From Anaerolineales bacterium (GTDB lineage: Bacteria > Chloroflexota > Anaerolineae > Anaerolineales > UBA11657), in assembly GCA_022450585.1 (NCBI GenBank), contig JAKUPR010000005.1:2141-66140 (forward strand): 64,000 nt of DNA. The letters are read 5' to 3'. The notes below the pieces were generated by a model. It ran no database searches, was not told where the DNA came from, and worked only from the letters and a program-made list of their open reading frames with translations. Below are positions 3,201 through 64,000 of this stretch, in pieces. Positions within the stretch are counted from its first letter, which is position 1. The number at the start of each line of letters is the position of its first letter. A program made the position numbers and the translations under genes.

Positions 3201-4118
3201 TCAAGCTTTCTCAGTATGACAAGAACATCCCCCTGAAGTATGTCGCTCACATGGTGATCCCGCTTTCGCCGCCAATGCTTCATACTCTTTCCACGGAACA
3301 ATATCTTCTCTACGCACATCGTGCTGCTGTCCCTCAACAACAACAGTAGCGATATCAGCAAGCGGTTTCAGACCAACAACTTTCCCTGCTCCGTGAGGGG
3401 TGCCAACGCGTTTCTTTATTTTTGGTAGATGTTTCCGAGCATCCACATATTGCTCATACTCATACTGTAGACAGCAACGCAGACGTCCGCACATGCCGCT
3501 AATGTCCTCGGGATTAAGAGATATCCCCTGCGCTTGAGCCATCTTGATAGTGACAGGACTGAATTCCGTCAAGAAGGTAGCACAGCACAGGTCACCACTA
3601 CAAGCACCGATTCCACCAAGCAGCTTAGCAAGATCACGAGGGCCAATCTTTACCATATCTACGCTACAATCAGGGAAAGTTTTGCGCAATCTAGAAAGCA
3701 TTCGCCCCACGCCACTGTACTCGTCTTCAGTAACAGTATAAAAAAAGCTCAATCGAGATCCATCAAAATTATATTCAGCTTGATGATACTTTATTCCGCT
3801 CGGTTTCAACTCAGTGGCAATGCGCTTGCAAGCAACAAATGCATCCGGATCCTTGGCCTCCCAAGTCTGCTTCAAAACTAAATCCCTTGGGGTCGCCAGT
3901 CGCAAAATCTTTTTTAATTTTGTGCCATCTTTCCGAGCTTTGGAACTGGCGGAAATTTTTGCCACTTCAGCCATCTGAATGCCACGCCTAGTTTTCACAA
4001 TCACGTGGTCTCCCACACCCAACCCCGAATGCTCGCTAGCATCAAAATGGTAAATTTTTCCAACCGACTTAAAGCGAACCTCCGCAACAATTTTATCTGC
4101 TACTTTTGCAGTGACCAC
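3201..4118 (-). CDS. ricT: PSP1-domain protein, RicT/YaaT family (Fe-S-binding regulatory protein)
   Basis: The PSP1 C-terminal domain pattern is present with Cys clusters GACSGDLCCATFL and CGRLRCCLQYE. There is an extra Cys/His tail, SPCERHTSGGCSCH. The GTG start lies 10 nt after the mrp stop, so the gene is probably co-transcribed. Confidence 0.8.
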   Translation of the reverse strand: MVTAKVADKIVAEVRFKSVGKIYHFDASEHSGLGVGDHVIVKTRRGIQMAEVAKISASSKARKDGTKLKKILRLATPRDLVLKQTWEAKDPDAFVACKRIATELKPSGIKYHQAEYNFDGSRLSFFYTVTEDEYSGVGRMLSRLRKTFPDCSVDMVKIGPRDLAKLLGGIGACSGDLCCATFLTEFSPVTIKMAQAQGISLNPEDISGMCGRLRCCLQYEYEQYVDARKHLPKIKKRVGTPHGAGKVVGLKPLADIATVVVEGQQHDVRREDIVPWKEYEALAAKAGSPCERHTSGGCSCHTEKA

Positions 4119-4128
4119 GTTAGCTAAA

Positions 4129-4950
4129 TTATCCGATCACTTCTATCGGAATGGATCCCACCTGATCCTTACCTGCTTGCGCTGCCACTTTCTCAGAGAC
4201 AGCAAAGGCAATACTCCTGAGTGCAGCTGCAGATGCAGAATTAGTACCCCCAACTACAATCGGTGTACCTTCATCGCCCCCCACTCGCACATCTGGGTCT
4301 AATGGAATCTGACCCAAAAATGGCACATTAGCATCCCCGGCCAACCGCTCACCTCCGCCCTGACCAAACACATCCACCCGTGATCCATCTGGCATGGCGA
4401 GATAACTCATGTTCTCCACAACCCCAAGTATCGGAACCTTGAGTTGCCGGAAAAGCTCCAGACCACGCCGTGCATCCGCAATAGATACGGCCTGTGGAAG
4501 CGTGACGATAACTCCCCCGGTCAAAGAGAGAGTTTGTGCCACACTCAGTTGCGCGTCACCTGTACCTGGAGGTAAATCGACAATTAAGTAATCTAAACGG
4601 CCCCAATCAACGTCTGCCACGAACTGGCGAATGGCCGAGTGTAACATAGGTCCGCGCCAAGCCAATGGCTGTTCTGCGCCAACAAGTAAACCCATGCTTA
4701 CTACTTTGACGCCATGCGCCTCTGCCGGTATGATCGTCTTGCCACGCGGCGGAGGCAACTTATCGACACCAAGCATAATATGACAATTAGGGCCATAAAC
4801 GTCTGCATCTAGTAAACCAACCGACAAACCACTTTGGGCCAACAAAATGGCTACATTGACTGCCACTGTGGATTTGCCAACACCACCTTTACCAGAGGCT
4901 ATAGCCACCGAGGACAAAAATTGCGAGGCAGATTCTCCCTCAGTACTCAC
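4129..4950 (-). CDS. mrp: Mrp/NBP35/ApbC-family P-loop ATPase lacking the family CxxC motif
   Basis: It has the deviant Walker A SGKGGVGKST, DLPPGTGD and VVENMS. The usual ENMS..CxxC..FG.GG region reads ENMSYLAMPDGSRVDVFGQGGG. The protein has only one Cys. The GTG start overlaps the upstream ORF stop (GTGA). Confidence 0.85.
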   Translation of the reverse strand: MSTEGESASQFLSSVAIASGKGGVGKSTVAVNVAILLAQSGLSVGLLDADVYGPNCHIMLGVDKLPPPRGKTIIPAEAHGVKVVSMGLLVGAEQPLAWRGPMLHSAIRQFVADVDWGRLDYLIVDLPPGTGDAQLSVAQTLSLTGGVIVTLPQAVSIADARRGLELFRQLKVPILGVVENMSYLAMPDGSRVDVFGQGGGERLAGDANVPFLGQIPLDPDVRVGGDEGTPIVVGGTNSASAAALRSIAFAVSEKVAAQAGKDQVGSIPIEVIG

Positions 4951-5324
4951 TCCTGTTCTACCTCGGTTATGGCATCAGACATTGAGCGTTTCTGGATTTT
5001 ATTTGACCCTCGACGCAAATAATCATCAACATCATCACGAGCTTCGTGGAACTCATCGGTCAAATCATCATCGCTACCTTTGTAACGACGGGTTACTTGC
5101 TGCGCACACGCAGTACAACCCAAACGCGCCCGATGTGAACCTGCATGACAAGTCATGCAGCCCGCATTTCTAATCATCATTAGGGAAAAACCATGCTCAT
5201 CTAATGAACCTTCCGGCTGCTCACATACTGAGTTCACTAGCTTGTCCCAACGCGCACCCCGCAAACCCTGGAGACATGGGATGACACGCGCAGGGAAAAG
5301 CAATTCCGCGTCAGGCTGATACAT
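4947..5324 (-). CDS. Hypothetical small Cys-rich protein (CxxC-x10-CxxC knuckle pair, acidic C-terminal tail)
   Basis: This 125-aa ORF has a 4-nt overlap with the mrp start. It contains CMTCH...CTAC plus two further Cys. I recognise no family. Confidence 0.6.
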   Translation of the reverse strand: MYQPDAELLFPARVIPCLQGLRGARWDKLVNSVCEQPEGSLDEHGFSLMMIRNAGCMTCHAGSHRARLGCTACAQQVTRRYKGSDDDLTDEFHEARDDVDDYLRRGSNKIQKRSMSDAITEVEQE

Positions 5325-5470: not shown

Positions 5471-6124
5471 TCAAGACAAAGATGCTTTTTTTTCTGCGGC
5501 TATGCGTTTCTTTTCAGCCGCAGCTGCCTTACGAGCTGCTTTCTTAGCTTCTTCCTCAGCGCGAGCTTGCTCCTCGGATGCGTAGTCTGTCGGACAGATG
5601 CTCGCATAATACTCTACCGGCTTATCCAAACGGTCCTTATCAAAAATATGCGCTTCAGTACGATCGTAGGATGCTAGTTCATAATCATGATCCATTTTGA
5701 TTGCATCGAAAGGACAATACTCGGCACAATAGCCACAATTCATACAAATATCAATATCGATGAAGAACCTGGTGGGCTCTGGTATCGGACGGCCAGTGTC
5801 CGGATCTGAGGAGCGCTCAATCCAGATACACTGGGGCGGGCACACTTTCGCACATATACCACAAGATGTGCATCGATCTGTCCTACTGCCATCTTCGTGT
5901 TCATCGTACAGTAGAAACGGAATAAAGCGAAAGCGCTCTGGAACCGGAAGTTTTTCTTCCGGGTATTGTACAGTGAAGACACCGCGCCCCTTCGTACCTT
6001 GACGAACATTCAAGGCATCATCACTATAATAACGCTGCCCGAGGAAGCTCAGATCGTCCACAAAACTATCGATGAGGTGCTTTATAGTCACCCCCATGCC
6101 ACGTAGAATTCCAGTCCCGTACAT
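5471..6124 (-). CDS. nuoI: NADH-quinone oxidoreductase subunit I (2x[4Fe-4S] ferredoxin) with a Lys/Ala/Glu-rich C-terminal tail
   Basis: Two ferredoxin motifs are present, CTSCGICAKVCP and CMNCGYCAEYCP. The gene starts 12 nt downstream of nuoCD. A tail of about 45 aa (EEQARAEEEAKKAARKAAAAEKKRIAAEKK) extends beyond the usual NuoI end. Confidence 0.9.
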   Translation of the reverse strand: MYGTGILRGMGVTIKHLIDSFVDDLSFLGQRYYSDDALNVRQGTKGRGVFTVQYPEEKLPVPERFRFIPFLLYDEHEDGSRTDRCTSCGICAKVCPPQCIWIERSSDPDTGRPIPEPTRFFIDIDICMNCGYCAEYCPFDAIKMDHDYELASYDRTEAHIFDKDRLDKPVEYYASICPTDYASEEQARAEEEAKKAARKAAAAEKKRIAAEKKASLS

Positions 6125-6136
6125 ATATTTCAGCCC

Positions 6137-7915
6137 CTATCGGTCCACTTCGCCCAACACAATATCTATGCTTCCCAGAATCACCACCGCATCAGCCACC
6201 TTATGACCCTTGCACATTTCTCCAAGCACGGTCAGGTTAATAAAGGAAGGTGCACGCACATGATAGCGATATGGATTAGTCTTGCCCTTAGAAACCACGT
6301 AATAGCCAAGTTCACCTTTAGGGTTTTCCACGCGCCCATAAGATTCTCCCTTCGGAACACGCACATTGTATTGCGGTTTACCAGTAAAAATTTCGCCTTC
6401 CTCCGGAATTTCCCGCATCACCTGCTGGCAAATCTTGACACTCTCGCGCATTTCATCGATACGTACAACATAGCGATCATACACATCGCCATTTGAACGT
6501 GTACACACCTCGAAATCCAAACGATCATATATGCTATAAGGCTCGGCACGGCGCAAATCATATGGCACACCCGAAGCTCGTAATAGTGGTCCAGCTGTGC
6601 TATATGCAATTGCCTTATCTGCTGGGAGAACACCCACACCTATGCAACGACTACGCACGATTTCGTTGCCGGTCAAAAAGCGATCAAGCTCATCAATTGC
6701 CGCCGGCAGCCGCTCGTTAACCAAGTCTCCAATAAAATCCACAGTATTCTCATCACGCAGAGTATCTGGAAGATCTCTCGCCACACCACCAAAGCGCATG
6801 TAATTACACATCATGCGAGAACCAGCAGTGGCCTCAAATATGTCCAAAATCAGTTCACGGGCGCGAATGGCGTATAAGGCCGGAGTCTGGAACGCGCCCA
6901 GGTCGTTCAAGAGAAAGCCAATGGCCCACATATGATTGGACACACGAGTCAGTTCCGCCATCAGAACTCGGAGGTACTCCGCCCTCTCCGGGACATCCAC
7001 TCCCATCAGTTTCTCTACTGCAAGCGAATAACCAAGGTTGTTGCTCATAGAGCTCAGATAATCGAGGCGGTCTGTATACGGCATATTTTGCAGAAAAGTG
7101 TTGCGCTCGCCAATTTTCTCGTGATTGCGATGCAAATAACCCATCACCGGCTGCAAATCCGTAATCGTCTCCCCATCAAGCGCCACCACCATACGGAAGA
7201 CACCATGGGTAGATGGATGTTGGGGGCCCATGTTCACCACCAACGAATCTGTTTTCAGTTTTTTGCCATTGGAACCGGACTTGTTCAATCCAGCATACAG
7301 GCTGCTATCATCTTCTGGCGCCCAGTTGTCGATATCAAACTCATCAGGATAACTGACATTTTTCCCGAAACGATTTTCTGCCTCGCTACGCTTCACATCA
7401 CCACCCGGCCACCTGCTGTCGAATGGCTTGTTTTCCTCCTCAAAGTAAGCCTCTTGCCAATCCTTGCGGAGAGGATGGCCAGCGAATCCGTCCCACATAA
7501 GAATACGACGCAAGTTGGGATGGCCTTCAAACGACACCCCATACATATCAAAAATTTCTCTCTCCTGAAAATCTGCGCCTGGATAGACCGACACTAGCGA
7601 GGGTAGTATTGGATTTTCTCTATCAACCTGAACCTTGAAATTAAGAGCAGGTCCACCACTAGTTTGGTAAGCATGATATACAACCTCTATCTTACCTTCA
7701 TCGAAGTAATCCACTCCTGTAACCGAGGAAAGATAATCGTATCCTAGCTCATCTCGGAGCACGGTCGCCACATCCTTTAAGCTCTCAACCGATACGACGT
7801 AACCCTCGTAGCCATCGCGATCATCCGTACGCAGTGCATTGCCAAACCTTGCGACAATTGAGTCGGCAACTGGTACCTGTTCCGGTGCTACAACATTGCG
7901 TTCTTCTTCGGACAC
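6137..7915 (-). CDS. nuoCD: Fused NADH-quinone oxidoreductase subunit C/D
   Basis: The N-terminal half is NuoC-like ([16 protein letters not shown]). The C-terminal half is NuoD-like ([14 protein letters not shown] ... [12 protein letters not shown]). It has no hydrogenase-type Cys ligand motifs. Confidence 0.92.
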
Positions 7916-7919
7916 TTAT

Positions 7920-8561
7920 CTATGCCTCAAGCGTTTCTGCGGAATCACCCGGCTGGCCTGCTTGTTGTGCCAACAATGCGTGTTGGCGTGGATCCAGTAA
8001 ATCCGGACCGAGTACCGGAATCGGCACAGCCTCGCTAGCATTCTGACCATACCAACGCACTGCCTTTATCGACTGATTGTCAATTTTCTGCTGCAGCTTA
8101 ATCAGACCATGAAGCAATGCTTGCGGGGTGGGAGGACACCCAGGCACATATACATCCACAGGAACAAATTTATCAATACCAGAGACTACATTATATCCTT
8201 CCTTAAAAGGCCCGCCGCCGCTAGCACAAGCGCCCATAGCCATCACATACTTGGGCTCAGGCATCTGGTTGAACAAACGCACAATCTGCGGCACCATTTT
8301 CTTTGTCACCGTGCCGGAAACTATCATTAAATCCGCTTGACGCGGTGTAGCTCGGAAGACTTCCATGCCAAAACGAGCGATGTCGAAGCGGCTAGCAGCA
8401 GTGCAAATCATTTCGATCGCACAGCACGCCAACCCAAACACCATAGGCCATATAGATGAACGCCTACCCCAATTATAAATTCTGTCTAAGGATGTAATGG
8501 TGACAGCAGACTGCAGCTCATCCGGTACTGGAACATTCGGGTCATTCAATTCATTTTCCAT
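7920..8561 (-). CDS. nuoB: NADH-quinone oxidoreductase subunit B (N2 cluster subunit)
   Basis: Motifs [19 protein letters not shown] and VPGCPP are present. The stop lies 4 nt before the nuoCD start. The C-terminal extension is about 50 aa. Confidence 0.92.
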
Positions 8562-8770
8562 CAGGGAAAAACTCCTTGCATGCGTTTAGCTAGGCTATTG
8601 ATGGCGGTGTGGCTCCCAGTAGAAACAACTCCACCACCTTTATTCCGAGCCACTGAGTACATAAACCAGAAGCCGACGGAGCAAAAATTACAATTTTCAC
8701 AACCTAGGGAGAGATTATATGATTATGCCTATTCTTTGTCAAGAAATTGGACAACATTCTGCAAACCTGT

Positions 8771-8798
8771 TTGACAAAATCACCAATCAAGATACAAT
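8771..8798 (+). promoter_or_regulatory. Candidate sigma-70-type promoter for the SufR-like regulator (TTGACA-N16-TACAAT)
   Basis: TTGACA is at 8771-8776 and TACAAT at 8793-8798, about 70 nt upstream of the ATG at 8869. The -35 element is one arm of an 8-bp inverted repeat. Confidence 0.45.
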
Positions 8799-8868
8799 CA
8801 ACGAGTGGGAAAAGATACAATAAACCGGACGGAGTTTACTTAGTCTTAGTTGAGCAGATATATAAATC

Positions 8869-9507
8869 ATGCAAGACAAACGTCGTCAGATCCTCAATAT
8901 ACTGAAAGAGAAGGGGGCTGCAACCATTCAAAAGCTCAGTGCTGAGCTTGATGTTACTGGGGTAACTGTACGGCACCATCTAGATACACTACGAGATAAA
9001 GGCTTAGTGAGCGAACCGCAAGTTATTCATCGCAATTCTCCTGGACGCCCACAGTTTGAATATAGGCTTACTCCAAAAGCCAACGAGCACTTTCCCAAAC
9101 GTTTTCAAAGCATTTCTAACAATCTACTGCAGGAAATTAAGAGCCAAAGTGACGGGAACGAATTGTACCAAATTATGATGGGCGTTGCGCAAAGAGAAAT
9201 CGTAGATGCACCAAAGCGACGAATCAACAGTTCTTTTGAGGATCACATTGGTACAATTGTAGAATACCTAAATGGCAAGGGGTACCTAGCCAGTTGGGAA
9301 AAACACCCGGACGGCATCATGCTTCACACAAGCAATTGCCCTTTCGAGGGAGTGGCAGAGCAACACCCAGAAATGTGTCAAATGGATGAGTATATGCTCT
9401 CATCATTGCTCGGAGTAGCCCCAAGATGTGTGAGCCACATCGCTGAAGGTAGCAGCAGCTGCTCATATATAATCACTGATTCGGATATCGTGGCGAGCGA
9501 TACATGA
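8869..9507 (+). CDS. SufR-like winged-HTH transcriptional regulator with a C-terminal four-Cys (Fe-S sensing) domain
   Basis: The N-terminal DeoR/ArsR-type HTH reads RRQILNILKEKGAATIQKLSAELDVTGVTVRHHLDTLRDKGLV, followed by GRPQFEY. The C-terminal pattern is C-x12-C-x16-C-x10-C (SNCPFEGVAEQHPEMCQMDEYML...RCVSHIAEGSSSCSY). This resembles the four-Cys layout of cyanobacterial SufR. Confidence 0.65.
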   Translation: MQDKRRQILNILKEKGAATIQKLSAELDVTGVTVRHHLDTLRDKGLVSEPQVIHRNSPGRPQFEYRLTPKANEHFPKRFQSISNNLLQEIKSQSDGNELYQIMMGVAQREIVDAPKRRINSSFEDHIGTIVEYLNGKGYLASWEKHPDGIMLHTSNCPFEGVAEQHPEMCQMDEYMLSSLLGVAPRCVSHIAEGSSSCSYIITDSDIVASDT

Positions 9508-9626: not shown

Positions 9627-10061
9627 ATGAGTACATTGGAAGCCGCTATCGATACAGCTGTAGAAACAATAGCTCCTGAAGAAATAACACTAACCTCAGG
9701 TGCACGTGATCACGTCACCAAGTTGCTGGATGAACGCAAAATGGCTGGTCATGGGCTACGTGTTTTTGTGTCTGGCGGTGGGTGTTCAGGTATGCAGTAC
9801 GGTATGGCACTAGAAGCAGAGCCACGTGAATTTGACACCATTGTTGAAAAAGAGGGCATTAAAGTCTTTGTCGATCCAACATCACTCATGTATATGCGCG
9901 GTGCCTCTATTGATTATGTAGATAGTCTTATGGGCGGCGGTTTCAGTATCGACAATCCACAAGCTGTTGCTAGCTGCGGGTGTGGACATTCATTCCGTAC
10001 AACCGATAACGAACCTGCTCCCACACCTGCGTCAGGTGGCTGTGGCAGCGGTTGCGGTTAA
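9627..10061 (+). CDS. HesB/IscA/SufA-family A-type Fe-S cluster carrier with an extra Cys-containing C-terminal tail
   Basis: Motifs LRVFVSGGGCSGMQYG and CGCGHSF supply the three conserved Cys. A tail of about 25 aa ends in GGCGSGCG. Confidence 0.88.
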   Translation: MSTLEAAIDTAVETIAPEEITLTSGARDHVTKLLDERKMAGHGLRVFVSGGGCSGMQYGMALEAEPREFDTIVEKEGIKVFVDPTSLMYMRGASIDYVDSLMGGGFSIDNPQAVASCGCGHSFRTTDNEPAPTPASGGCGSGCG

Positions 10062-56456: not shown

Positions 56457-57845
56457 CTAGGACGCCTTAGCAATGCGCTCGGCCAAAGCAATCGCGCGCT
56501 CCATACACTGGTCGCTATCGATGTAGCGATACTCGCCTGTCCGACCGAGAACATCCAAATTGGGTTGCTCTCGAATGAACTGTAGTACATTATCCAAATG
56601 CTCGCGGAAGCCATAATAGCGGATTGGGTACGCATGCGCAGCTCGCACAACAAACGACTTTGTAATATCTTCCCCTGATATGATTCCATCTTGATCCAGA
56701 TGCGGCAATGACAATTCTAAGAGCTCTTGCTCGCTCATCTTCCACAGTTTGTCTCCACTATGGCAAGAAAACTCAACAGCCAACATGTTTTCTCCAGGCG
56801 GGGAAAGAGTATCACAAAATTTGTCCATCTCCGCAAGACGATGGTAAGGACGACCCAAGTAGTAAATATACGAAGTATCCAGTAAATCCCTCTTTGACGT
56901 AACCACATAAAGCACTATCAAGCCAAGGTATCCTAGTCGATCTGCGCTTGCTTGAACATTGGATGAAACACCAGGGGATATCATTTTGACTAGGTTCGGT
57001 ATAGGTATTGTGGAAATAACATGATCAGCTTCCATTTTAACTACTTGGCCGTTTTGAAGTACCGTAACAACGTAACCACCAGCGACAGATCTAAGCTGCG
57101 TTACCCTAGAATTGAGGTGGATAATCCCCCCCTGGTTCAGCACACGCTCAGCTATTGCCTCAGCAATCAAACCATATCCCCGAGTTGGATAACGCAATGG
57201 TAGTACAAGCTCTCGCTCTGTAAGAGACCGTGCCTTTCCACTCACTCTCCGCACGAGCATCATCTTCAAACTTTTCATGAAATTTAGCCTAGTACTGGTG
57301 GGTAGAATCTCTGGAGAGAGACGCTCACAGGCTAGCTTCCAAAACCCTTCAGTATATGGACGAAAGAAAATTTTAGCCAGATGGCTACCAAAATTAGCCG
57401 CCGCCCATTCCCCAAAGTGAGGACTTTGTTCATGCATTCCTAGTATTTTCTGTGCTATCCGCTTTAGCTGTGCCCATACAAAAGTAAACACGGAAGCGAT
57501 AGAATCACCCGGCGAGAAATTCAGCAACACATTTTTCGCGCTTAGGGGATAGTCTAAGAAGCGCCCCTGAATGTGTAGCTGTGCACTACGCTCAAAACTG
57601 ACCACATCGTCAGCCAAGAGGTCTGTGATGCGTTCAACAATCTCTTGTTTCTGAGTGATAAAGAAATGTGGCCCAAAATCAAGGCAGTACTTACCTTCAT
57701 CAGCGCGAATAGTACCGGCCAGACCACCAATGTGACCCTGAGATTCACAAATTATCGTCTGGAATCCAAGTTCATGTAGTCGCCAAGCAACCGACAATCC
57801 GGAGATACCAGCACCCAATACTATAATCCGTTTTTTGTTATCCAA
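56457..57845 (-). CDS. FAD/NAD(P)-binding oxidoreductase (amine oxidase / UDP-galactopyranose mutase-like superfamily)
   Basis: The N-terminal dinucleotide-binding motif is IIVLGAGISGLSVAWRL...ESQGHIGG. Length is 462 aa. Confidence 0.75.
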   Translation of the reverse strand: MDNKKRIIVLGAGISGLSVAWRLHELGFQTIICESQGHIGGLAGTIRADEGKYCLDFGPHFFITQKQEIVERITDLLADDVVSFERSAQLHIQGRFLDYPLSAKNVLLNFSPGDSIASVFTFVWAQLKRIAQKILGMHEQSPHFGEWAAANFGSHLAKIFFRPYTEGFWKLACERLSPEILPTSTRLNFMKSLKMMLVRRVSGKARSLTERELVLPLRYPTRGYGLIAEAIAERVLNQGGIIHLNSRVTQLRSVAGGYVVTVLQNGQVVKMEADHVISTIPIPNLVKMISPGVSSNVQASADRLGYLGLIVLYVVTSKRDLLDTSYIYYLGRPYHRLAEMDKFCDTLSPPGENMLAVEFSCHSGDKLWKMSEQELLELSLPHLDQDGIISGEDITKSFVVRAAHAYPIRYYGFREHLDNVLQFIREQPNLDVLGRTGEYRYIDSDQCMERAIALAERIAKAS

Positions 57846-57879
57846 TCTGGAGATTCACCTAGAAACTAATTTAGTAGTA

Positions 57880-58617
57880 TTAGAAAACCATCAATACATT
57901 CTTATAATTTGCGTTTACCGTGAATTGCGTTGGCAACGTGGTCACCTTAATTCCTAACTCCACACCCAGAGATTCCCAGAATCCGTCGGGTATTTGTAAG
58001 TAGCTGTGGCCACGCTGCTTAACCTTTCGATAACGAGCGTCAGCAAGCCATATTTTACAAAGTAAACCAATTACGTCAACAACCATACCTTCCCGTAGCA
58101 CGAAAGCTAGTGACTTGAGTATATCTTGAATCGTTCTGCCTTTGTGACCGATGTCTCCTATAATCATCTTTGATCCCGAGACGGATATTTGCTGCATGCC
58201 ACGGACAAACGCAGTTACATGGTCCAGGTCGGCAAAGTAATGCACCACGCTAAAGCAGATAATTTTAGTGAAACCCGAACCTAAGGTGGAGATGTCACTC
58301 ATGTCCGGTTTTACCTGCCTAACAATTACATTTGATTTTGAAGCGAACTTGAGGTTACACACACTGACATAATAATCGGACATGTCAGCACACACTACCG
58401 AGCCCACATTGTTGGCCACGTTTTCTGCAAAGTGGCCAACACCACAACCAAAATCAAGTACTTTGTCATCCTGACAGTAACCCATTAAATCAGAACTGAG
58501 GCGCACAAACGTGTCCATCTGTTTCCTCCAGAGGCTGGAGTGAGACCACGTGTTGTCGCTATTCCAGTACTCAACCCAGACGTTTTTATGCCCAGTAGAA
58601 CCTGCAGTATCACTCAT
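57880..58617 (-). CDS. Class I SAM-dependent methyltransferase
   Basis: The SAM motif is VLDFGCGVGHF. I set the start at the ATG at 58617, which forms an ATGA overlap with the upstream stop. The track ORF starts at 58647. Confidence 0.75.
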   Translation of the reverse strand: MSDTAGSTGHKNVWVEYWNSDNTWSHSSLWRKQMDTFVRLSSDLMGYCQDDKVLDFGCGVGHFAENVANNVGSVVCADMSDYYVSVCNLKFASKSNVIVRQVKPDMSDISTLGSGFTKIICFSVVHYFADLDHVTAFVRGMQQISVSGSKMIIGDIGHKGRTIQDILKSLAFVLREGMVVDVIGLLCKIWLADARYRKVKQRGHSYLQIPDGFWESLGVELGIKVTTLPTQFTVNANYKNVLMVF

Positions 58618-59564
58618 AGTTTCTTCGCTTTCAGTCCACTTAACCACTCAACTGTTTCTCGGATACCTGAATTAAGATTGCCACGATAAGAGAAACCTAG
58701 GGCTCGAATCTTGCTGTCATCAACATGATATGACACCTGATTGAGAAGCCGTGTCCTAGTGTATTCTATCTCCGCGGCCGGAAAGTTGCTGCGTACCTCG
58801 TTTATTATCTGATCGATTGTGGAATTCAGGGTAACCACATTATAAATCTGCCCAGTCGTTTCTGGACGACTCAGAACAAATTCAATAGCCGCCACGCCAT
58901 CCTCCAATGCAAGATAAGGGCGCACTAGGTCAACTGCTTCTGACCACACCGTGAACGATCTCCCGGTAGCGGCATAGAAGATAAATTTGTTTACTGCAGT
59001 GTGAAAACGCATGCCAATACTTGGACCAAAAATAGTTCCCAGACGCAGGATCACGCCCCGGATATCGCCTCTCTCAGTTGCAGAAATAACTTCTTCCTCG
59101 GCAGCCAATTTACTGGTAGCGTATGGGCTTTGTGGCTTAAGGTCGCTTCGATCGCAATCCTCTCGCGCAATACCACTCACAGGGCCATACACGCTGGTAG
59201 TGGAAGGGAAAACCAGAGACTTTACACCATGCTGAATACATGATTGAAGCACATTCTTAGTCCCTCCAAGATTCACGGATTGCACCTGCTCTGAGATATC
59301 GAAGCTCCCTTCTGCATTGGTGATTGCCGCTAAATGCACCACAGAATCCACATCGCTCATAGCCCGGGAGAGATCATTAGAATCCAAGATATCGCCCTTT
59401 ACGAACGTGTATTCTAGGTTTTTCGGTAGGTCAAATAAGGATGCATAACGCTGTGTGCTTAGATTATCTAGAATAGTGATTGCTCGGATCCTAGAATTGT
59501 CCGACAAATAACGTATGAGCTGAGAACCAATATGTCCAAGGCCACCAGTAACTAGAACGTGCAT
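58614..59564 (-). CDS. NAD-dependent sugar epimerase/dehydratase (extended SDR)
   Basis: Motifs MHVLVTGGLGHIGSQLIRYL and YATSKLAAE (YxxxK) are present. Confidence 0.85.
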   Translation of the reverse strand: MHVLVTGGLGHIGSQLIRYLSDNSRIRAITILDNLSTQRYASLFDLPKNLEYTFVKGDILDSNDLSRAMSDVDSVVHLAAITNAEGSFDISEQVQSVNLGGTKNVLQSCIQHGVKSLVFPSTTSVYGPVSGIAREDCDRSDLKPQSPYATSKLAAEEEVISATERGDIRGVILRLGTIFGPSIGMRFHTAVNKFIFYAATGRSFTVWSEAVDLVRPYLALEDGVAAIEFVLSRPETTGQIYNVVTLNSTIDQIINEVRSNFPAAEIEYTRTRLLNQVSYHVDDSKIRALGFSYRGNLNSGIRETVEWLSGLKAKKL

Positions 59565-59570
59565 AAAAAC

Positions 59571-60614
59571 TTATTCATTATTATGATAATAGCGTACTGT
59601 CTCCTGCATCCCCTCATCCAAACTGACTAACGCTTGCCAACCTAAATCAGATTGAATCTGCGAACTATCGATAATGACGTCGCCAACATCGATCCGTTTG
59701 CGATCATCGGGCCAAACAACTTGCGTAACACTTCCAGTACCACTAGCAGCCACTATTCTCTGAGCAAGATCCCTAACACTAACAGACCGTTCATTGCCTG
59801 CAAACCAAACACGCCCTCGTAAATCTGTCTGAGCCGCTAGCGCAAGAGCTGTGATCGCATCTTGCACATAAAGCACGCTGCGCAACTGGTCCCCATCACC
59901 AAATATAGTAAGACACTGGTCATCCAGAGCAAGGCCAAAAAAGAAATTAATAAAACCGAAATCCGGGCTGTTTATATTCGCACGAGGACCATATACATTA
60001 GGAAGACGTACTGAATTTACTGCCATGTCATATGCCCTAGCATAAATAAGGCAATAATACTCTGCTGCAGCCTTGTTAGCTGAGTAGATGTCCACAGGAG
60101 CAACCGGATGACCCTCAGTGATGGGTTCCATGATCATAGGACCAATTTGCGTGCTGGTACCTACATAAACCATCTGCGCTGCGGGCTGAAACCTACGCAG
60201 TGCCTCTAGAACATTAAGGGTGCCTATACAATTCACAGAAACATCCCGTTGCGGGTCACGCATTGAATACGGGTGGGAAGTATGCGCAGCACAGTGGAAG
60301 AGATATGAGGCATTTTGCACTACTGAGGCCATTACGTCGAATTCGCAAATGTCTGCAGAAACCAATTCTACACAATCATCAATGCCATTCAAATTGGCAA
60401 TGTCACCCCCAGAGCGAGGGTCAAGCGAATCGACAATGGTAACATCAGCACCGCCCCCAACAAGGGAGTGTGCCAGATTACTGCCAATGAAACCTAATCC
60501 TCCTGTTACAACGACACGTTTTCCCGCGAATACCTCAAAGATCTTGCTGCTCACCAATACTCTCCTTAAGACCCTCATGATAGAACTGAATGGTCTTCCG
60601 CAAACCATCTGCAA
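59571..60614 (-). CDS. NAD-dependent sugar epimerase/dehydratase (extended SDR)
   Basis: Motifs VVVTGGLGFIGSNLAHSL and YSANKAAAE are present. The start is uncertain. In-frame TTG or GTG codons at 60557 and 60554 would reduce the 80-nt overlap with the upstream gene. Confidence 0.82.
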   Translation of the reverse strand: MQMVCGRPFSSIMRVLRRVLVSSKIFEVFAGKRVVVTGGLGFIGSNLAHSLVGGGADVTIVDSLDPRSGGDIANLNGIDDCVELVSADICEFDVMASVVQNASYLFHCAAHTSHPYSMRDPQRDVSVNCIGTLNVLEALRRFQPAAQMVYVGTSTQIGPMIMEPITEGHPVAPVDIYSANKAAAEYYCLIYARAYDMAVNSVRLPNVYGPRANINSPDFGFINFFFGLALDDQCLTIFGDGDQLRSVLYVQDAITALALAAQTDLRGRVWFAGNERSVSVRDLAQRIVAASGTGSVTQVVWPDDRKRIDVGDVIIDSSQIQSDLGWQALVSLDEGMQETVRYYHNNE

Positions 60615-61557
60615 AACTTACTCGGGGAAACCAGCCCGTTTCCATACGCAATTTTCTATTGTCAGCTATGAAATCACCAACATCCATCTTCTCCTCATCA
60701 CTTGGAAATGGTACTCTTTGGATTTCAGACTTTACTCCAACCACATCATGTACTGCATCCACAATCTGGGCTACCATCTCTTGAAACTGCAGCCCAATAC
60801 CTGACCCGAACACATAGGCTCTCCCAACCGCGCGCGGTGATGACGCAACTAGCAACAGTGCATCCACTACATTCTGCACATATGAGTAGTCTCGCACAAA
60901 ATCTCCTGGCTCGTAAATGGTCAACGGGCTACCGGTCATCGCACGCCACAGCATAAAATTAAGTATGCCCCTTCGCGGATTGTTCACCTGTTGGCGTTCT
61001 CCAAACACATTCGCAAGACGCAGCATACTAGTTTTCAGACCATAGTTCTGATGATATACGTATAGGTACTTCTCGCAGGTAAGCTTATGGGCGTCGTACA
61101 GAGTAAGTGGCCAATCCGGATGATTCTCCGCTACCGGCACTGCGGCGACACGACCCGCTTGCGTAACTGTGCCAGGAACGACTATGGAAGCGCTAGGACA
61201 CAACAAACGACAAGCTTCCAACAGCGCCAACGTAACACCACAATTATCCTGCAAATCCTGCAGCGGAGATTCCATAGAGTGCAGGTGACTGGTCTGAGCA
61301 GCAAGATGAAAGACGTAATCATGCCCCGGAAGGATATTTCTCAAGGAGGCAACGGAAGAAGTCGAAGTGCTCAAATCAACTCTTTTCACACTGAGGAGCT
61401 TCTTCACAGATAAAATATTCTCCTCTTTTTTCATTGAGCGCGTCAACACAGTAACGTTACAACCCATAGAGAGACAGCGCAATGCCAAATTACTCCCGAT
61501 GAAACCTAGTCCACCAGTAATGAGTACACGGCTCCCCTTAATTGCCGAAAAATCCAT
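60535..61557 (-). CDS. NAD-dependent sugar epimerase/dehydratase (extended SDR)
   Basis: Motifs VLITGGLGFIGSNLALR and YDAHKLTCE are present. Confidence 0.85.
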   Translation of the reverse strand: MDFSAIKGSRVLITGGLGFIGSNLALRCLSMGCNVTVLTRSMKKEENILSVKKLLSVKRVDLSTSTSSVASLRNILPGHDYVFHLAAQTSHLHSMESPLQDLQDNCGVTLALLEACRLLCPSASIVVPGTVTQAGRVAAVPVAENHPDWPLTLYDAHKLTCEKYLYVYHQNYGLKTSMLRLANVFGERQQVNNPRRGILNFMLWRAMTGSPLTIYEPGDFVRDYSYVQNVVDALLLVASSPRAVGRAYVFGSGIGLQFQEMVAQIVDAVHDVVGVKSEIQRVPFPSDEEKMDVGDFIADNRKLRMETGWFPRVSFADGLRKTIQFYHEGLKESIGEQQDL

Positions 61558-61583
61558 AAACTTCAGATCTCACCTGCTCCGTT

Positions 61584-62822
61584 TCATATAATACGCGCCA
61601 TGGGAATATGAGTAATAAAGCGACCACCATGTTCTCGGAAAACATGCTCCTTAATAGATATTTCATTCAAATGATTCCATGCGAGCAGGAAAGCATAATC
61701 TGGGTAATCTGCAGCAAAACGATCAATCGATACTACCGGTATATGGGTACCAGGGGTAAAAAGACCTTCTTTCGAAGGTGTATTGTCGCAGACAAATTCC
61801 AACAAATCGGGTCCAATACCACAGTAGTTAAGAATAACCGTACCCTTTGAAGAAGCAGCGTAACCAACCAGTCGAGCGCCTTCTCCCTGTAAGCTCCCCA
61901 ATAAATCTCTTAGCGAGTCTCGCGATTGCTCGACGCGTGCTGCAAAGGCTGAATAGGTATCCAGGGAATCCAGACCATGTTCATTTTCCAGAGTAAGTTG
62001 AGATCTCACCGATGGCTCTTCACGACGACTGCATGCCACCTTGCAACCATACACGCGCATTGACCCCCCGTGCACTGCAATCGGATCAACACGGAAGATA
62101 CGTAAACCATGCTTTTCAAATAAACGCTTTAATGACGAGACAGAAAAGTAATATACGTGCTCGTCATAAATCTGATCATAGGCCAGCTGCGCCATGATTT
62201 CTAGCCAGTAGGGATCCTCAAAAACAAATACGCCTTCCTCATCCAGCAGTGCCTCTAGGGCACGAGCTACGCCGTTCAGGTCCGGAATATGACAGAGAAC
62301 ATTCGCGCCAACCACCAGCTGCGCCGGTCCATGCTCAGCACGCAGAGTACCCGCTAATTCCACGTTGAAGAACTCTGAAATCACATTTAGTCCTTTATCT
62401 CGGGCAGCAGCAGCCACGTTGGCGGATGGCTCAATGCCAATAGCATTTGCATTATGACTGACAAGTTTTTGTAACAGGATTCCGTCGTTGGCGCCGATTT
62501 CCACAATTGGCAATGAAGCATCGTACAAAATCTCTTCGCCAATGATTGTTGACAATTCAGAGAAGTGCTCATCCATCACCTGCGAGATTGAAGAAAAATA
62601 AGCATAGTTGCCATGGAAAAGCATGTCTGGTTCAACAACTTCCATCAATTGAACCATCCGACACGAAACACAAAACCCGCACCGCAGTCTAAAGGTATAT
62701 TCCGGTTCCGAGAGTTGTGCATGCGTGAGAAAAGAGTTGGCAATAGGCATTTTCCCTAAGTCAAGGAACGGATGCAAAGACATACCGTCGCAGATACGGC
62801 ATCTTATTGACAATGTAGACAT
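61584..62822 (-). CDS. NDP-hexose C-methyltransferase (TylCIII/NovU-like: Zn-ribbon + SAM MTase + C-methyltransferase C-terminal domain)
   Basis: The N-terminal motif is CRICDGMSLHPFLDLGKMPIANSF, with a second Cys pair, CGFCVSC. The SAM motif is VEIGANDG. Length is 412 aa. Confidence 0.8.
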   Translation of the reverse strand: MSTLSIRCRICDGMSLHPFLDLGKMPIANSFLTHAQLSEPEYTFRLRCGFCVSCRMVQLMEVVEPDMLFHGNYAYFSSISQVMDEHFSELSTIIGEEILYDASLPIVEIGANDGILLQKLVSHNANAIGIEPSANVAAAARDKGLNVISEFFNVELAGTLRAEHGPAQLVVGANVLCHIPDLNGVARALEALLDEEGVFVFEDPYWLEIMAQLAYDQIYDEHVYYFSVSSLKRLFEKHGLRIFRVDPIAVHGGSMRVYGCKVACSRREEPSVRSQLTLENEHGLDSLDTYSAFAARVEQSRDSLRDLLGSLQGEGARLVGYAASSKGTVILNYCGIGPDLLEFVCDNTPSKEGLFTPGTHIPVVSIDRFAADYPDYAFLLAWNHLNEISIKEHVFREHGGRFITHIPMARII

Positions 62823-62935
62823 ATTAATCCTTTCATCTTACCTTTTCTGAAGATCGGCAAATTAGCTCACACATTGCCACTAGGCCAACACAAAATCAGA
62901 GATATAATCAGTTTGCCGCATGTGTGCATCACTTT

Positions 62936-64000
62936 TCAATTTTTCAGGTTCTCCCACTCCTGAATATGTCTCGCTACCCTATCCACAGCGGCGAGAGACA
63001 ATTCCGGATATATAGGCAAGCTTAGAATTTCTCCCGCTACATAATCGGTATGGGTTAGATCCCCGAAGGTATGTACCCGCCCAGCATAAGCAGGTTGCCT
63101 ATGTACCGGCACTGGATAATGAACAGCGCTGCCTATACCATAGTCACTCAGATAATCACCGAGTATATCGCGCTGCACGGTTCTAATCACAAACTGATGA
63201 TACACATGTTGAGCATTGAAGCGTATGATCGGGAGACAAATCTGTGCCTGATTCAGTAGTTCCTCATAGCGCCGCGCGAGCAACGCGCGTCGCTCATTAT
63301 CAGAATTCAGATGATGCAATTTTGCACGCAGGATGGCAGCCTGTAAAGAATCAAGACGACTGTTGAATCCTGGAATTTCACTGACATGCCTTTTACGCCA
63401 TCCATACTCACGCAATTCACGTACCCTTGCCAATAAATTCGCGTCGGAACTCACAACTGCTCCGCCATCACCCAATGCGCCAAGATTCTTGGTGGGATAG
63501 AAACTAAAAGCAGCTATATGACCCCATGTCCCCACACTACGCCCATCAATTTTAGCGCCATGAGCCTGGGCACAATCTTCAACAACGTAGACTCCGTGCT
63601 TTTGTGATATCTCGCAAATAGCAGGCATGTCGGCCGGGTGGCCGTATAAATGCACCGGTACCACAGCACGCGGACGCCCAACAGGATGGTCTCGCAGGGC
63701 TTCCTGTAAACTAGAGCAATCCATAGTATAACTTTTCGGGTCAATGTCAAGAAGAACAGGGGTTGCCCCAGTCAGTTCAATGGCCGCCATAGTAGCCACC
63801 GCCGTATGTGATACAGTGAATACTAGGTCACCAACGCCTACACCACAGGCGCGCAGGGCCATTTCGAGAGCATCTGTACCCGATGCTACAGCAACTGTAT
63901 GCGCAGCGCCCACAAAATCGGCGAACTCACGCTCAAAGAACTCCACTTCTTCCCCTAATATGTATTGTCCGCTTTCCAGTACTCGCTGGACTGCCATATC
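62936..64000 (-). CDS. DegT/DnrJ/EryC1/StrS-family sugar aminotransferase, N-terminus beyond the window edge
   Basis: Motifs VLESGQYILGEEVEFFEREFADF and FSFYPTKNLGALGDGGAV (PLP-Lys region) are present. The frame stays open through base 64000. Confidence 0.88.
   Translation of the reverse strand, partial: DMAVQRVLESGQYILGEEVEFFEREFADFVGAAHTVAVASGTDALEMALRACGVGVGDLVFTVSHTAVATMAAIELTGATPVLLDIDPKSYTMDCSSLQEALRDHPVGRPRAVVPVHLYGHPADMPAICEISQKHGVYVVEDCAQAHGAKIDGRSVGTWGHIAAFSFYPTKNLGALGDGGAVVSSDANLLARVRELREYGWRKRHVSEIPGFNSRLDSLQAAILRAKLHHLNSDNERRALLARRYEELLNQAQICLPIIRFNAQHVYHQFVIRTVQRDILGDYLSDYGIGSAVHYPVPVHRQPAYAGRVHTFGDLTHTDYVAGEILSLPIYPELSLAAVDRVARHIQEWENLKN

What the first reader, a model, noticed from the sequence alone, without database searches (positions are those of the whole stretch)
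4129..5324. Mrp/NBP35-family ATPase without its CxxC cluster ligands, translationally coupled to a small CxxC-x10-CxxC protein
The 273-aa ATPase has the family hallmarks SGKGGVGKST, DLPPGTGD and VENMS. ApbC/Mrp, Nbp35/Cfd1 and Ind1 carry a CxxC pair after ENMS that ligates the bridging [4Fe-4S] cluster. Here that region reads ENMSYLAMPDGSRVDVFGQGGG (4351-4416), and the whole protein has only one Cys. The upstream 125-aa ORF overlaps the ATPase start by 4 nt (GTGA). It carries CMTCH-x10-CTAC (5106-5159), two more Cys and an acidic tail. One reading is a split scaffold in which the cluster ligands are supplied in trans. Another is a Mrp paralog repurposed away from Fe-S chemistry.
Basis: partly seen in the sequence, partly recalled or inferred. 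Interest (0 to 1): 0.55.

Follow-up and report, generated by a model that had tools for sequence, protein, structure and literature searches.

The report
Cysteine-less Mrp ATPase with four-cysteine partner
In a marine Anaerolineales genome, an Mrp-type ATPase without its usual iron-sulfur-binding cysteines sits behind an uncharacterised small four-cysteine protein, in an operon with three complex I subunits, and this layout recurs across Anaerolineae, pointing to a lineage-specific helper module for iron-sulfur proteins.

Summary
The 273-aa Mrp/NBP35 ATPase (4129-4950, -) has AMPDG where ApbC, Cfd1 and archaeal Mrp have CxxC, and it has one non-conserved Cys. The 125-aa ORF (4947-5324, -) overlaps it by GTGA and carries CMTCH-x10-CTAC.

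The interpretation needs revision.
- Loss of CxxC is not special to this gene. All 120 nearest homolog clusters lack it, as do all 59 Mrp genes found next to a small-ORF homolog. Most keep an N-terminal DUF59 domain with one conserved Cys (TTPACP); the window's marine clade has lost that domain.
- The small ORF is a real gene (dN/dS about 0.15). It has 263 clusters at 50% identity and about 472 GTDB matches; all 80 loci fetched are Chloroflexota, mostly Anaerolineae. C56, C59, C70 and C73 are invariant. It has no Pfam or NCBIfam family. The AlphaFold model is confident (pLDDT 93.6), all-helical and matches no PDB fold.
- It is tied at least as tightly to nuoI as to mrp. The usual order is nuoB-nuoCD-nuoI-small-mrp-ricT (58 of 71 informative species).

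Best reading, by inference only: an accessory module for Fe-S maturation of the complex I Q-module, comparable in role to Ind1. Ligand supply in trans is not excluded and not shown.

The parts
4129..4950 (-). Mrp/NBP35-family P-loop ATPase, 273 aa, with no DUF59 domain and no CxxC (NCBI MCH2539151.1)
   Evidence: PF10609 scores 302 bits against a cutoff of 27. It falls below the NCBIfam equivalog cutoffs for ApbC (243 vs 348) and MrpORP (276 vs 450). The exact sequence is on record from an Anaerolineales MAG.
4351..4416 (-). ENMSYLAMPDGSRVDVFGQGGG, the position where canonical Mrp proteins carry the cluster-bridging CxxC
   Evidence: Coordinates checked. Aligned to CxxC in 8zkc, 2ph1, 3kb1 and 6g2g, and in the Nostoc, haloarchaeal and Azospirillum proteins.
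4947..5324 (-). Small 125-aa all-helical protein of an uncharacterised four-Cys family (NCBI MCH2539152.1, 'hypothetical protein')
   Evidence: Homologs. Invariant C56, C59, G69, C70 and C73 (A3). AF2 pLDDT 93.6 and pTM 0.82. No PDB fold match. No recurring Pfam family. dN/dS 0.14-0.17.
5106..5159 (-). CMTCH-x10-CTAC, the invariant CxxC-x10-CxxC motif
   Evidence: In the model, the first CxxC lies in a short turn after helix 41-54 and the second at the N-terminus of helix 70-79.
4947..4950 (-). GTGA overlap of the small ORF's stop codon and the ATPase's start codon
   Evidence: The overlap is absent from the two relatives checked, L003 and L005.
5471..6124 (-). nuoI (2x[4Fe-4S] subunit) with a Lys/Ala/Glu-rich C-terminal tail, 146 nt upstream of the small ORF
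   Evidence: It lies directly upstream of the small ORF in 67 of 71 informative species loci.
6137..7915 (-). Fused nuoC/nuoD
7920..8561 (-). nuoB (carrier of cluster N2), first gene of the operon
3201..4118 (-). ricT/yaaT (PSP1 domain, Fe-S-containing RicT family), 10 nt downstream of the ATPase
   Evidence: NF041131 scores 179 bits against a cutoff of 70. It lies within 2.6 kb downstream in 30 of 59 loci that have at least 3 kb of downstream sequence.
8714..8742 (-). Perfect TTGACA-17-TATAAT promoter-like site upstream of nuoB. No promoter-like or terminator-like site was called on the minus strand between nuoI and the small ORF.
   Evidence: consensus scan only.
8869..9507 (+). Divergent SufR-like ArsR-type regulator with a C-x12-C-x16-C-x10-C tail
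   Evidence: SufR_cyano aligns end to end at 68.5 bits, below its cutoff of 178.8. Sequence.
9627..10061 (+). A-type Fe-S carrier (IscA/SufA/ErpA family)
   Evidence: TIGR00049 scores 123.5 bits against a cutoff of 58.8.

Best explanation
The two genes are the fourth and fifth genes of a conserved Anaerolineae operon, nuoB-nuoCD-nuoI-small-mrp-ricT. The ATPase belongs to a large Chloroflexota clade of Mrp proteins that have lost the cluster-bridging CxxC. The window's marine lineage has also lost the N-terminal DUF59 domain, which holds the only conserved Cys in that clade. The small protein is a compact helical protein of a previously undescribed family whose four invariant cysteines most likely hold a metal. 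The proposed mechanism is inferred, not shown. The ATP-bound Mrp dimer and the small protein would act together as a dedicated accessory module for inserting the [4Fe-4S] clusters of NuoB and NuoI (the complex I Q-module), the role Ind1/NUBPL plays in mitochondria. The small protein would act either as a Zn-stabilised adaptor between ATPase and client or as the holder of the transient cluster. Its very conserved but weakly structured N-terminal peptide (YQxDxExLFPxR) is the likeliest docking element.
For: Shown: family membership of the ATPase with intact Walker A and B motifs; absence of CxxC in the window, in all 120 nearest homolog clusters and in all 59 syntenic Mrp genes; DUF59 with TTPACP in about 87 of 91 long relatives and in 44 of 59 syntenic ones, absent from the window; a conserved small-ORF family with four invariant Cys; a confident all-helical model. 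Synteny in 80 GTDB species loci: nuoI-small-mrp 58, nuoI-small without mrp 9, small-mrp without nuoI 2, neither 2. A further small/DUF59-Mrp neighbourhood without nuo genes is seen. Gaps along the operon are short: 4, 12, 146, -4 and 10 nt. A perfect promoter-like site lies before nuoB, and no terminator-like site was called before the small ORF. The neighbourhood is Fe-S themed throughout: a SufR-like regulator, an A-type carrier, RicT and RimO here, and IscX before nuoB in L007 and L090. In one locus without nuo or mrp, the small ORF is followed by another 2x[4Fe-4S]+CCG protein (L088). From the literature: Ind1/NUBPL is an Mrp-family factor for the Fe-S subunits of complex I (PMC7980591, PMC2805927).
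Against: No interaction, metal content or phenotype data exist, so the functional link rests on gene order alone. The 80 loci are those most similar to the window among 472 matches, so synteny in the wider family is unsampled. At least three species carry the small gene with neither nuo nor mrp nearby (L001, L086, L088). The other nuo genes are not in the 64-kb window, and it is not established that NuoB/CD/I need a dedicated factor. A CxxC-x10-CxxC motif is more typical of structural zinc than of Fe-S (own knowledge), which fits the adaptor version but not the cluster-holding version. It is unknown whether these genomes also encode a canonical CxxC Mrp elsewhere.
Confidence: 0.42

Rival explanations
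1. The small protein is a lineage-specific supernumerary subunit of the complex I peripheral arm: a metal-stabilised accessory protein bound near NuoI, as Zn-binding NDUFS6 is in mitochondria or Nqo15/16 in Thermus. The Mrp gene downstream works independently of it.
For: The link to nuoI is the tightest of all (67 of 71 informative loci) and survives loss of the adjacent mrp (L007, L017, L019, L040, L044, L066, L077, L090). The protein is small, compact and confidently folded. NDUFS6 and Nqo15/16 as precedents are own knowledge.
Against: The small gene also occurs next to mrp without nuo genes (L030, L056, and the P0053 locus) and alone (L001, L086, L088). It has no Pfam hit to zf-CHCC/NDUFS6 and no similarity to any chain of a solved complex I in the PDB fold search.
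Confidence: 0.2
2. One reading: the Mrp dimer has lost its own ligands, and the small protein's CxxC pairs ligate the transient [4Fe-4S] cluster in trans, giving a two-component Fe-S carrier.
For: Every Mrp found next to the small gene lacks CxxC (59 of 59). In a subset the whole hairpin is deleted (ENMSGEFFGEGGG). Some relatives have no Cys at all (P0070, P0080, P0088, P0095). The four Cys of the small protein are invariant. In the DUF59-less clade the motif changes from CLTCHADSYRAM to CMTCHAGSHRARL. Trans-ligation has a precedent in RicA/RicF/RicT (own knowledge).
Against: CxxC loss is far more widespread than the small gene's known range: plastid HCF101, which still binds a [4Fe-4S] cluster through other Cys (PMC2805927), and Tk HypB. 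Most partner Mrp proteins retain the DUF59 Cys. The motif change in the DUF59-less clade is confounded with phylogeny. The motif spacing and its helix-N-terminus placement look like a structural Zn site. No structural or biochemical test was possible.
Confidence: 0.15
3. The gene order is conserved without a shared function. The Mrp is the clade's general Fe-S or other housekeeping ATPase, and the small protein does something unrelated.
For: The order varies at the edges. ricT is near in only 30 of 59 loci and the SufR/IscA pair in about 13-17 of 51. Unrelated genes (DinB, an ABC ATPase, IF3, LytR) follow the small gene where mrp is missing. The sample is phylogenetically narrow.
Against: The three-way adjacency survives down to 45-50% identity of the small protein and about 51% identity of the ATPase (tblastn identities), across taxa labelled Anaerolineales, Ardenticatenia, Aggregatilineales and Chloroflexia. 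The gaps are short and all genes share one strand. All partners are Fe-S related.
Confidence: 0.13
4. The small protein is a partner of RicT: a functional analogue of the small helical RicA/RicF proteins that share Fe-S clusters with RicT in Bacillus.
For: ricT lies within 2.6 kb downstream in 30 of 59 loci and directly follows the small gene in two Anaerolinea loci that lack mrp there (L066, L077). The small protein is helical and Cys-bearing.
Against: No Com_YlbF Pfam hit in any of 56 members. RicA (2pih) appears only at E 7.4 and TM 0.28. The link to ricT is weaker than the links to nuoI or mrp.
Confidence: 0.07

Closest known systems
ApbC/Mrp of Salmonella and E. coli (bacterial Fe-S carrier ATPase)
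   Same: Same P-loop family (PF10609). It is the best solved-structure match (8zkc, 217 bits), with about 48-50% identity to the plasmid-borne Azospirillum ApbC and Nostoc Mrp. The deviant Walker A, the DxPPGTGD motif and the ENMS motif are shared.
   Different: No CxxC, so the bridging [4Fe-4S] site is missing. No N-terminal domain. The score is below NCBI's ApbC equivalog cutoff (243 vs 348).
HCF101, the plastid class I FSC-NTPase
   Same: A DUF59-bearing Mrp-family protein that the literature reports to lack the CXXC motif. The only widely conserved Cys (Cys128) lies in DUF59, as in the Anaerolineae relatives (TTPACP) (PMC2805927).
   Different: The window protein has lost DUF59 and has no DUF971 domain or HCF101-specific Cys. 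HCF101 works without a known small partner. No direct sequence comparison with HCF101 was made here.
Ind1/NUBPL (mitochondrial complex I Fe-S assembly factor)
   Same: An Mrp-family ATPase functionally tied to the Fe-S subunits of complex I. Here the tie is conserved adjacency to nuoB, nuoCD and nuoI (PMC7980591).
   Different: Ind1 keeps CxxC and binds the cluster itself. No four-Cys partner is known for it. The role proposed here is inferred from synteny only.
Mrp/MinD-type HypB with HypA of Thermococcus kodakarensis (3vx3, 5aun)
   Same: A CxxC-less Mrp homolog. It works with a small CxxC...CxxC zinc protein to load a metal cofactor into [NiFe]-hydrogenase, the evolutionary relative of NuoD/NuoB (own knowledge).
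   Different: The ATPase here is much closer to ApbC (217 vs 121 bits). The small protein has no HypA Pfam hit and an all-helical fold. NuoD has the normal complex I sequence, and no hyp genes are nearby.
RicA/RicF/RicT complex of Bacillus subtilis
   Same: A precedent for small helical proteins contributing Cys ligands in trans to a shared [4Fe-4S] cluster (own knowledge). A ricT gene sits directly downstream.
   Different: No sequence or fold similarity to RicA or RicF. The link to ricT is the weakest of the three.

Membership tests
Mrp/NBP35 ATP-binding family (PF10609) | [quoted passage not shown] | tested here: met
   SGKGGVGKST is present. PF10609 scores 302 bits against a cutoff of 27.1 over profile positions 5-245 of 246.
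Mrp/NBP35 ATP-binding family (PF10609) | Conserved CXXC motif that ligates the bridging [4Fe-4S] cluster, named as one of the two main family signatures in PMC6345978 | tested here: not met
   AMPDG stands at the aligned position. The whole protein has one non-conserved Cys.
ApbC equivalog (NCBIfam NF008669) | Score above the curated whole-protein cutoff | tested here: not met
   243 bits against a cutoff of 348. MrpORP (NF041136) scores 276 against 450.
HCF101 / class I FSC-NTPase | N-terminal DUF59 (PF01883) with a conserved Cys | tested here: not met
   Absent from the 273-aa window protein. Present in most relatives: 91 of the 120 are at least 340 aa long, and about 87 Cys fall in the TTPACP motif.
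HCF101 / class I FSC-NTPase | Absence of the C-terminal CXXC motif | tested here: met
   for the window. The statement about HCF101 comes from PMC2805927.
HCF101 / class I FSC-NTPase | C-terminal DUF971 domain (named as an HCF101 hallmark in PMC7980591) | tested here: not met
   The Pfam scan of the 273-aa protein at E <= 0.1 lists no DUF971, and PF10609 covers residues 14-251.
Ind1/NUBPL | Required for assembly of the Fe-S subunits of complex I | not testable with these tools
   Only synteny with nuoB, nuoCD and nuoI is available (58 of 71 loci).
Mrp/MinD-type HypB with HypA | The ATPase is closest to the HypB clade, the partner is a HypA (PF01155), and hyp or hydrogenase genes are nearby | tested here: not met
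   3vx3 scores 121 bits against 217 for 8zkc. No HypA hit in the window protein or in 56 family members. The neighbours are nuo genes.
FdhE (a name JGI gives one homolog) | NCBIfam TIGR01562 above its cutoff | tested here: not met
   12.5 bits against a cutoff of 187.65, E 0.081.
RicA/RicF (Com_YlbF, PF06133) | Pfam match or fold match to YmcA/YlbF | tested here: not met
   No hit in 56 members at E <= 1. 2pih matches at E 7.4 and TM 0.28.
c-type cytochrome (CxxCH) | Conserved His after CxxC, plus an export signal | tested here: not met
   The window reads CMTCH, but across the family the residue after CxxC is H, N, E, D, Q or T. The N-terminus is not hydrophobic. The PDB profile hit to cytochrome c555 is built from three weak repeats.

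The most novel reading that the evidence does not exclude
The small four-Cys protein and the cysteine-less Mrp dimer form a two-component Fe-S cluster carrier. The ATPase supplies nucleotide-driven dimerisation and the small protein supplies all the cluster ligands. The carrier is dedicated to loading the [4Fe-4S] clusters of NuoB and NuoI. This would be a bacterial, split counterpart of Ind1 built on a previously undescribed protein fold.
Probability: 0.13. Interest if true: 0.75.

Novelty: new variant of a known kind. Interest (0 to 1): 0.5.

Why it matters
How [4Fe-4S] clusters reach bacterial complex I, and what Mrp-family ATPases do with ATP, are both poorly understood. A whole clade of Mrp proteins cannot bind a cluster in the canonical way, yet stays genetically welded to the Fe-S subunits of complex I and to a new four-Cys protein. 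That gives a natural system for separating the ATPase function from the ligand function. It also shows that current annotation of such proteins as 'iron-sulfur cluster carrier protein ApbC' in Chloroflexota MAGs is not justified by the family's own defining motif. Finally, it adds an uncharacterised protein family, with about 263 clusters at 50% identity, a confident predicted fold and no PDB counterpart, that could be registered and tested.

Tried and rejected
1. HypA-like Zn protein paired with an Mrp-type HypB. Rejected as homology: no HypA Pfam hit, an all-helical model and no fold match. Kept only as a functional analogy.

2. Small ORF as a detached or divergent DUF59. Rejected: most loci keep a full DUF59-Mrp directly after the small gene (gaps of 235-470 nt to the P-loop; TTPACP present). 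There is no PF01883 hit in the family apart from a frameshift artefact.

3. Domain fusions as Rosetta-stone evidence. The longer 'fusion' proteins P0324, P0299 and P0305 are frameshifted read-throughs, not real fusions.

4. c-type haem motif CMTCH. The His is not conserved.

5. Complex prediction with a fused chain and block-diagonal alignment. The first MAFFT alignment misplaced the small homologs (A4).

6. Search for CxxC-less Mrp outside Chloroflexota among plasmid records. The three hits inspected (Nostoc, Halomicrococcus, Azospirillum) all keep CxxC, so this gave only positive controls.

7. The search for related loci with the most diverse alignment failed for lack of a conserved stretch. 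It was rerun with A2.

8. Literature searches for this synteny or for the small family found nothing relevant.

9. No other nuo gene and no second Mrp-like gene were found in the parts of the window examined.
Full report
**1. The observation**

ORF 4129-4950 on the minus strand encodes a 273-aa protein with ASGKGGVGKST, DLPPGTGD and VENMS. It matches Pfam PF10609, the NUBPL/Mrp P-loop NTPase family, at 302 bits.

The segment ENMSYLAMPDGSRVDVFGQGGG occupies 4351-4416, and the protein's only Cys is C56 in GPNCHIM. Pairwise alignments to solved family members place AMPDG opposite the CxxC of 8zkc, 2ph1, 3kb1 and Cfd1. A multiple alignment with Mrp/ApbC genes from Nostoc, a haloarchaeon and Azospirillum shows CGDC, CPDC and CPNC in the same columns (A6).

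The upstream ORF 4947-5324 encodes 125 aa. It carries CMTCH-x10-CTAC at 5159-5106, two further Cys, and a charged tail. Its TGA stop overlaps the GTG start of the ATPase as GTGA.

**2. The ATPase belongs to a large CxxC-less clade**

A search of 5.8 billion proteins returned 8000 hits. All 120 best clusters, down to about 63% identity, lack CxxC and read ENMSYLELPDGxRMDxFGxGGG.

Of these 120, 91 are at least 340 aa long and carry an N-terminal DUF59 (PF01883). Their single Cys is almost always the DUF59 motif TTPACP (about 87 cases). A few have no Cys at all; in P0088 the DUF59 Cys is replaced by His.

The sources name these proteins 'Mrp/NBP35 family ATP-binding protein' or 'ApbC' from Anaerolineae or Chloroflexota MAGs. 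The window protein itself is MCH2539151.1 from an Anaerolineales MAG. By NCBI's own cutoffs it is neither an ApbC nor an MrpORP equivalog.

The window's close marine relatives (264-277 aa) have lost DUF59, and a Cys at GPNCH appears in that clade only.

The literature names CXXC as one of the two main signatures of the family (PMC6345978). It also records that plastid HCF101, a DUF59-bearing class I member, lacks CXXC yet binds a [4Fe-4S] cluster through other cysteines (PMC2805927). The Mrp/MinD-type HypB of T. kodakarensis also has no CxxC at this position. Absence of CxxC is therefore real but not unprecedented.

**3. The small ORF is a real gene of an undescribed family**

- It has 55 homolog clusters at 90% identity.
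- A profile search of 1.84 billion representatives gave 263 clusters at 50% identity, almost all free-standing proteins of about 110 aa.
- A scan of GTDB species genomes gave 472 confirmed matches. The best 80 are all Chloroflexota, mostly Anaerolineae.
- dN/dS against the nearest relatives is 0.14-0.17.
- Across 56 diverse members the invariant positions are L18, C56, C59, G69, C70 and C73, with F10, P11 and W26 nearly invariant (A3). Closer members share YQxDxExLFPxRVIP and FSLMMxR.

No Pfam or NCBIfam family matches it, either for the window protein or recurrently among the 56 members. The 'FdhE' name given by one source is not supported (12.5 bits against a cutoff of 187.65). The CxxCH in the window is not a haem motif, because the His is not conserved.

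AlphaFold2 with the diverse alignment gives pLDDT 93.6 and pTM 0.82. The model is all-helical: helices 12-18, 24-34, 41-54, 64-68, 70-79 and 85-120. The first CxxC lies in a turn and the second at a helix N-terminus. Apparent longer 'fusions' are frameshift artefacts.

**4. Genomic context**

In the window the order on the minus strand is nuoB (7920-8561), nuoCD (6137-7915), nuoI (5471-6124), small ORF, mrp, ricT (3201-4118). The gaps are 4, 12, 146, -4 and 10 nt.

A perfect TTGACA-17-TATAAT site lies before nuoB, and no terminator-like site was called before the small ORF. Divergently transcribed are a SufR-like regulator and an A-type Fe-S carrier. RimO converges from the other side.

Among 80 GTDB species loci, scored by tblastn with the window's proteins:

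| Arrangement | Loci |
|---|---|
| nuoI-small-mrp | 58 |
| nuoI-small, no adjacent mrp | 9 |
| small-mrp, no nuoI | 2 |
| neither | 2 |
| too short to score | 9 |

- ricT lies within 2.6 kb downstream in 30 of 59 loci with enough sequence. The SufR/IscA pair lies upstream in roughly a quarter to a third.
- All 59 adjacent Mrp genes lack CxxC, and 44 keep the DUF59 Cys. They fall into two subtypes: one keeps the hairpin (LPDG) and the other has deleted it entirely (ENMSGEFFGEGGG).
- Metagenomic contigs agree. IscX precedes nuoB in two of them.
- In one locus with neither nuo nor mrp, the small gene is followed by a Fer4+CCG Fe-S protein.
- Where mrp is missing, the genes that follow are unrelated: DinB, an ABC ATPase, LytR, IF3.

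**5. Interpretation**

The small gene is functionally linked, by conserved order, both to the Fe-S subunits of the complex I Q-module and to a CxxC-less Mrp. The link to nuoI is slightly the stronger.

The most economical reading is a lineage-specific accessory module for Fe-S insertion into NuoB and NuoI, analogous in role to mitochondrial Ind1/NUBPL. The small protein would be a metal-binding adaptor or a cluster holder.

It is not favoured over a structural-zinc adaptor or a supernumerary complex I subunit, for three reasons:
- The loss of CxxC is clade-wide.
- The partnership also occurs with Mrp proteins that still carry the DUF59 Cys, so it does not depend on the complete loss of Cys seen here.
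- The spacing and placement of the motif resemble a structural Zn site (inference from general knowledge).

Nothing here demonstrates interaction or metal binding.

**6. Limits**

- The 80 loci are the matches closest to the window, so synteny in the more divergent part of the family is barely sampled.
- Whole-genome content could not be examined. This leaves open whether there is a second, CxxC-type Mrp, a stand-alone DUF59 protein, or the remaining nuo genes elsewhere.
- No direct alignment with HCF101, SalA or actinobacterial Mrp was possible. Placement in 'class I' rests on domain architecture and the literature statement.

**7. Verdict**

The ATPase is a new variant within a known family and belongs to a known kind of CxxC-less lineage. 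The small protein is an uncharacterised family with a confident, unmatched predicted fold and strong synteny. Interest is moderate (0.5). It would rise substantially if the pair were shown to share a cluster or to be needed for complex I maturation.

Noticed in passing
window 5471-8561 (-): nuoB, the fused nuoCD and nuoI form a cluster without any other nuo gene nearby. Ten ORFs tested at 51.7-64 kb are unrelated genes, and the rest of the window was not scanned for nuo genes. NuoI carries a Lys/Ala/Glu-rich C-terminal tail of about 40 residues.
   Followed up: partly
window 8562-8868: The intergenic region between nuoB and the SufR-like gene holds a perfect TTGACA-17-TATAAT site on the minus strand (8742-8714). 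A divergent site matching 11 of 12 positions lies on the plus strand (8771-8798).
   Followed up: no
window 8869-9507 (+) and 9627-10061 (+): A SufR-like ArsR-type regulator aligns end to end with SufR_cyano but scores below its cutoff; it has a C-x12-C-x16-C-x10-C tail. It is followed by an A-type Fe-S carrier with an extra C-terminal GGCGSGCG.
   Followed up: partly
L018, L020-L023, L025, L027-L030 and other loci (Mrp genes): A subset of Anaerolineae Mrp proteins has deleted the whole hairpin that normally carries CxxC, reading ENMSGEFFGEGGG. The canonical bridging site is therefore physically absent, not merely mutated.
   Followed up: partly
P0088 (360 aa, named ApbC by NCBI), and also P0070, P0080, P0095: These are Mrp homologs with no cysteine at all. 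In P0088 the DUF59 motif TTPACP reads LSPAHP. The 'iron-sulfur cluster carrier protein ApbC' annotation looks unsafe for this clade.
   Followed up: partly
L088 6001-8482: In a species where the small gene has neither nuo nor mrp nearby, it is followed within about 15 nt by a 704-aa protein with a 4Fe-4S dicluster domain and CCG domains (HdrD/GlpC-like). This is another Fe-S client-like neighbour.
   Followed up: no
L066 4600-5816 and L077 6001-7202: In two Anaerolinea loci the small gene is followed directly by ricT (gap about 36 nt), with no mrp between them, and then by a PIG-L deacetylase gene.
   Followed up: no
window 3201-4118 (-): The RicT homolog carries the GMCGRLRCCLQYE motif and an extra Cys-rich C-terminus (SPCERHTSGGCSCH).
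   Followed up: no
window 56457-63997 (-): A run of sugar-nucleotide modification genes: a DegT/EryC1 aminotransferase, a C-methyltransferase with a zinc-binding domain, three NAD-dependent epimerases/dehydratases, a SAM methyltransferase and an amine oxidase. It is probably a deoxysugar or surface-glycan cluster.
   Followed up: no
window 4909-4950 (-): Some gene callers start the ATPase at the GTG of codon 15, giving 259-aa cluster members. That start would remove the overlap with the small ORF. The N-terminal extension of about 14 residues has a consistent length in relatives, which favours the longer form.
   Followed up: partly
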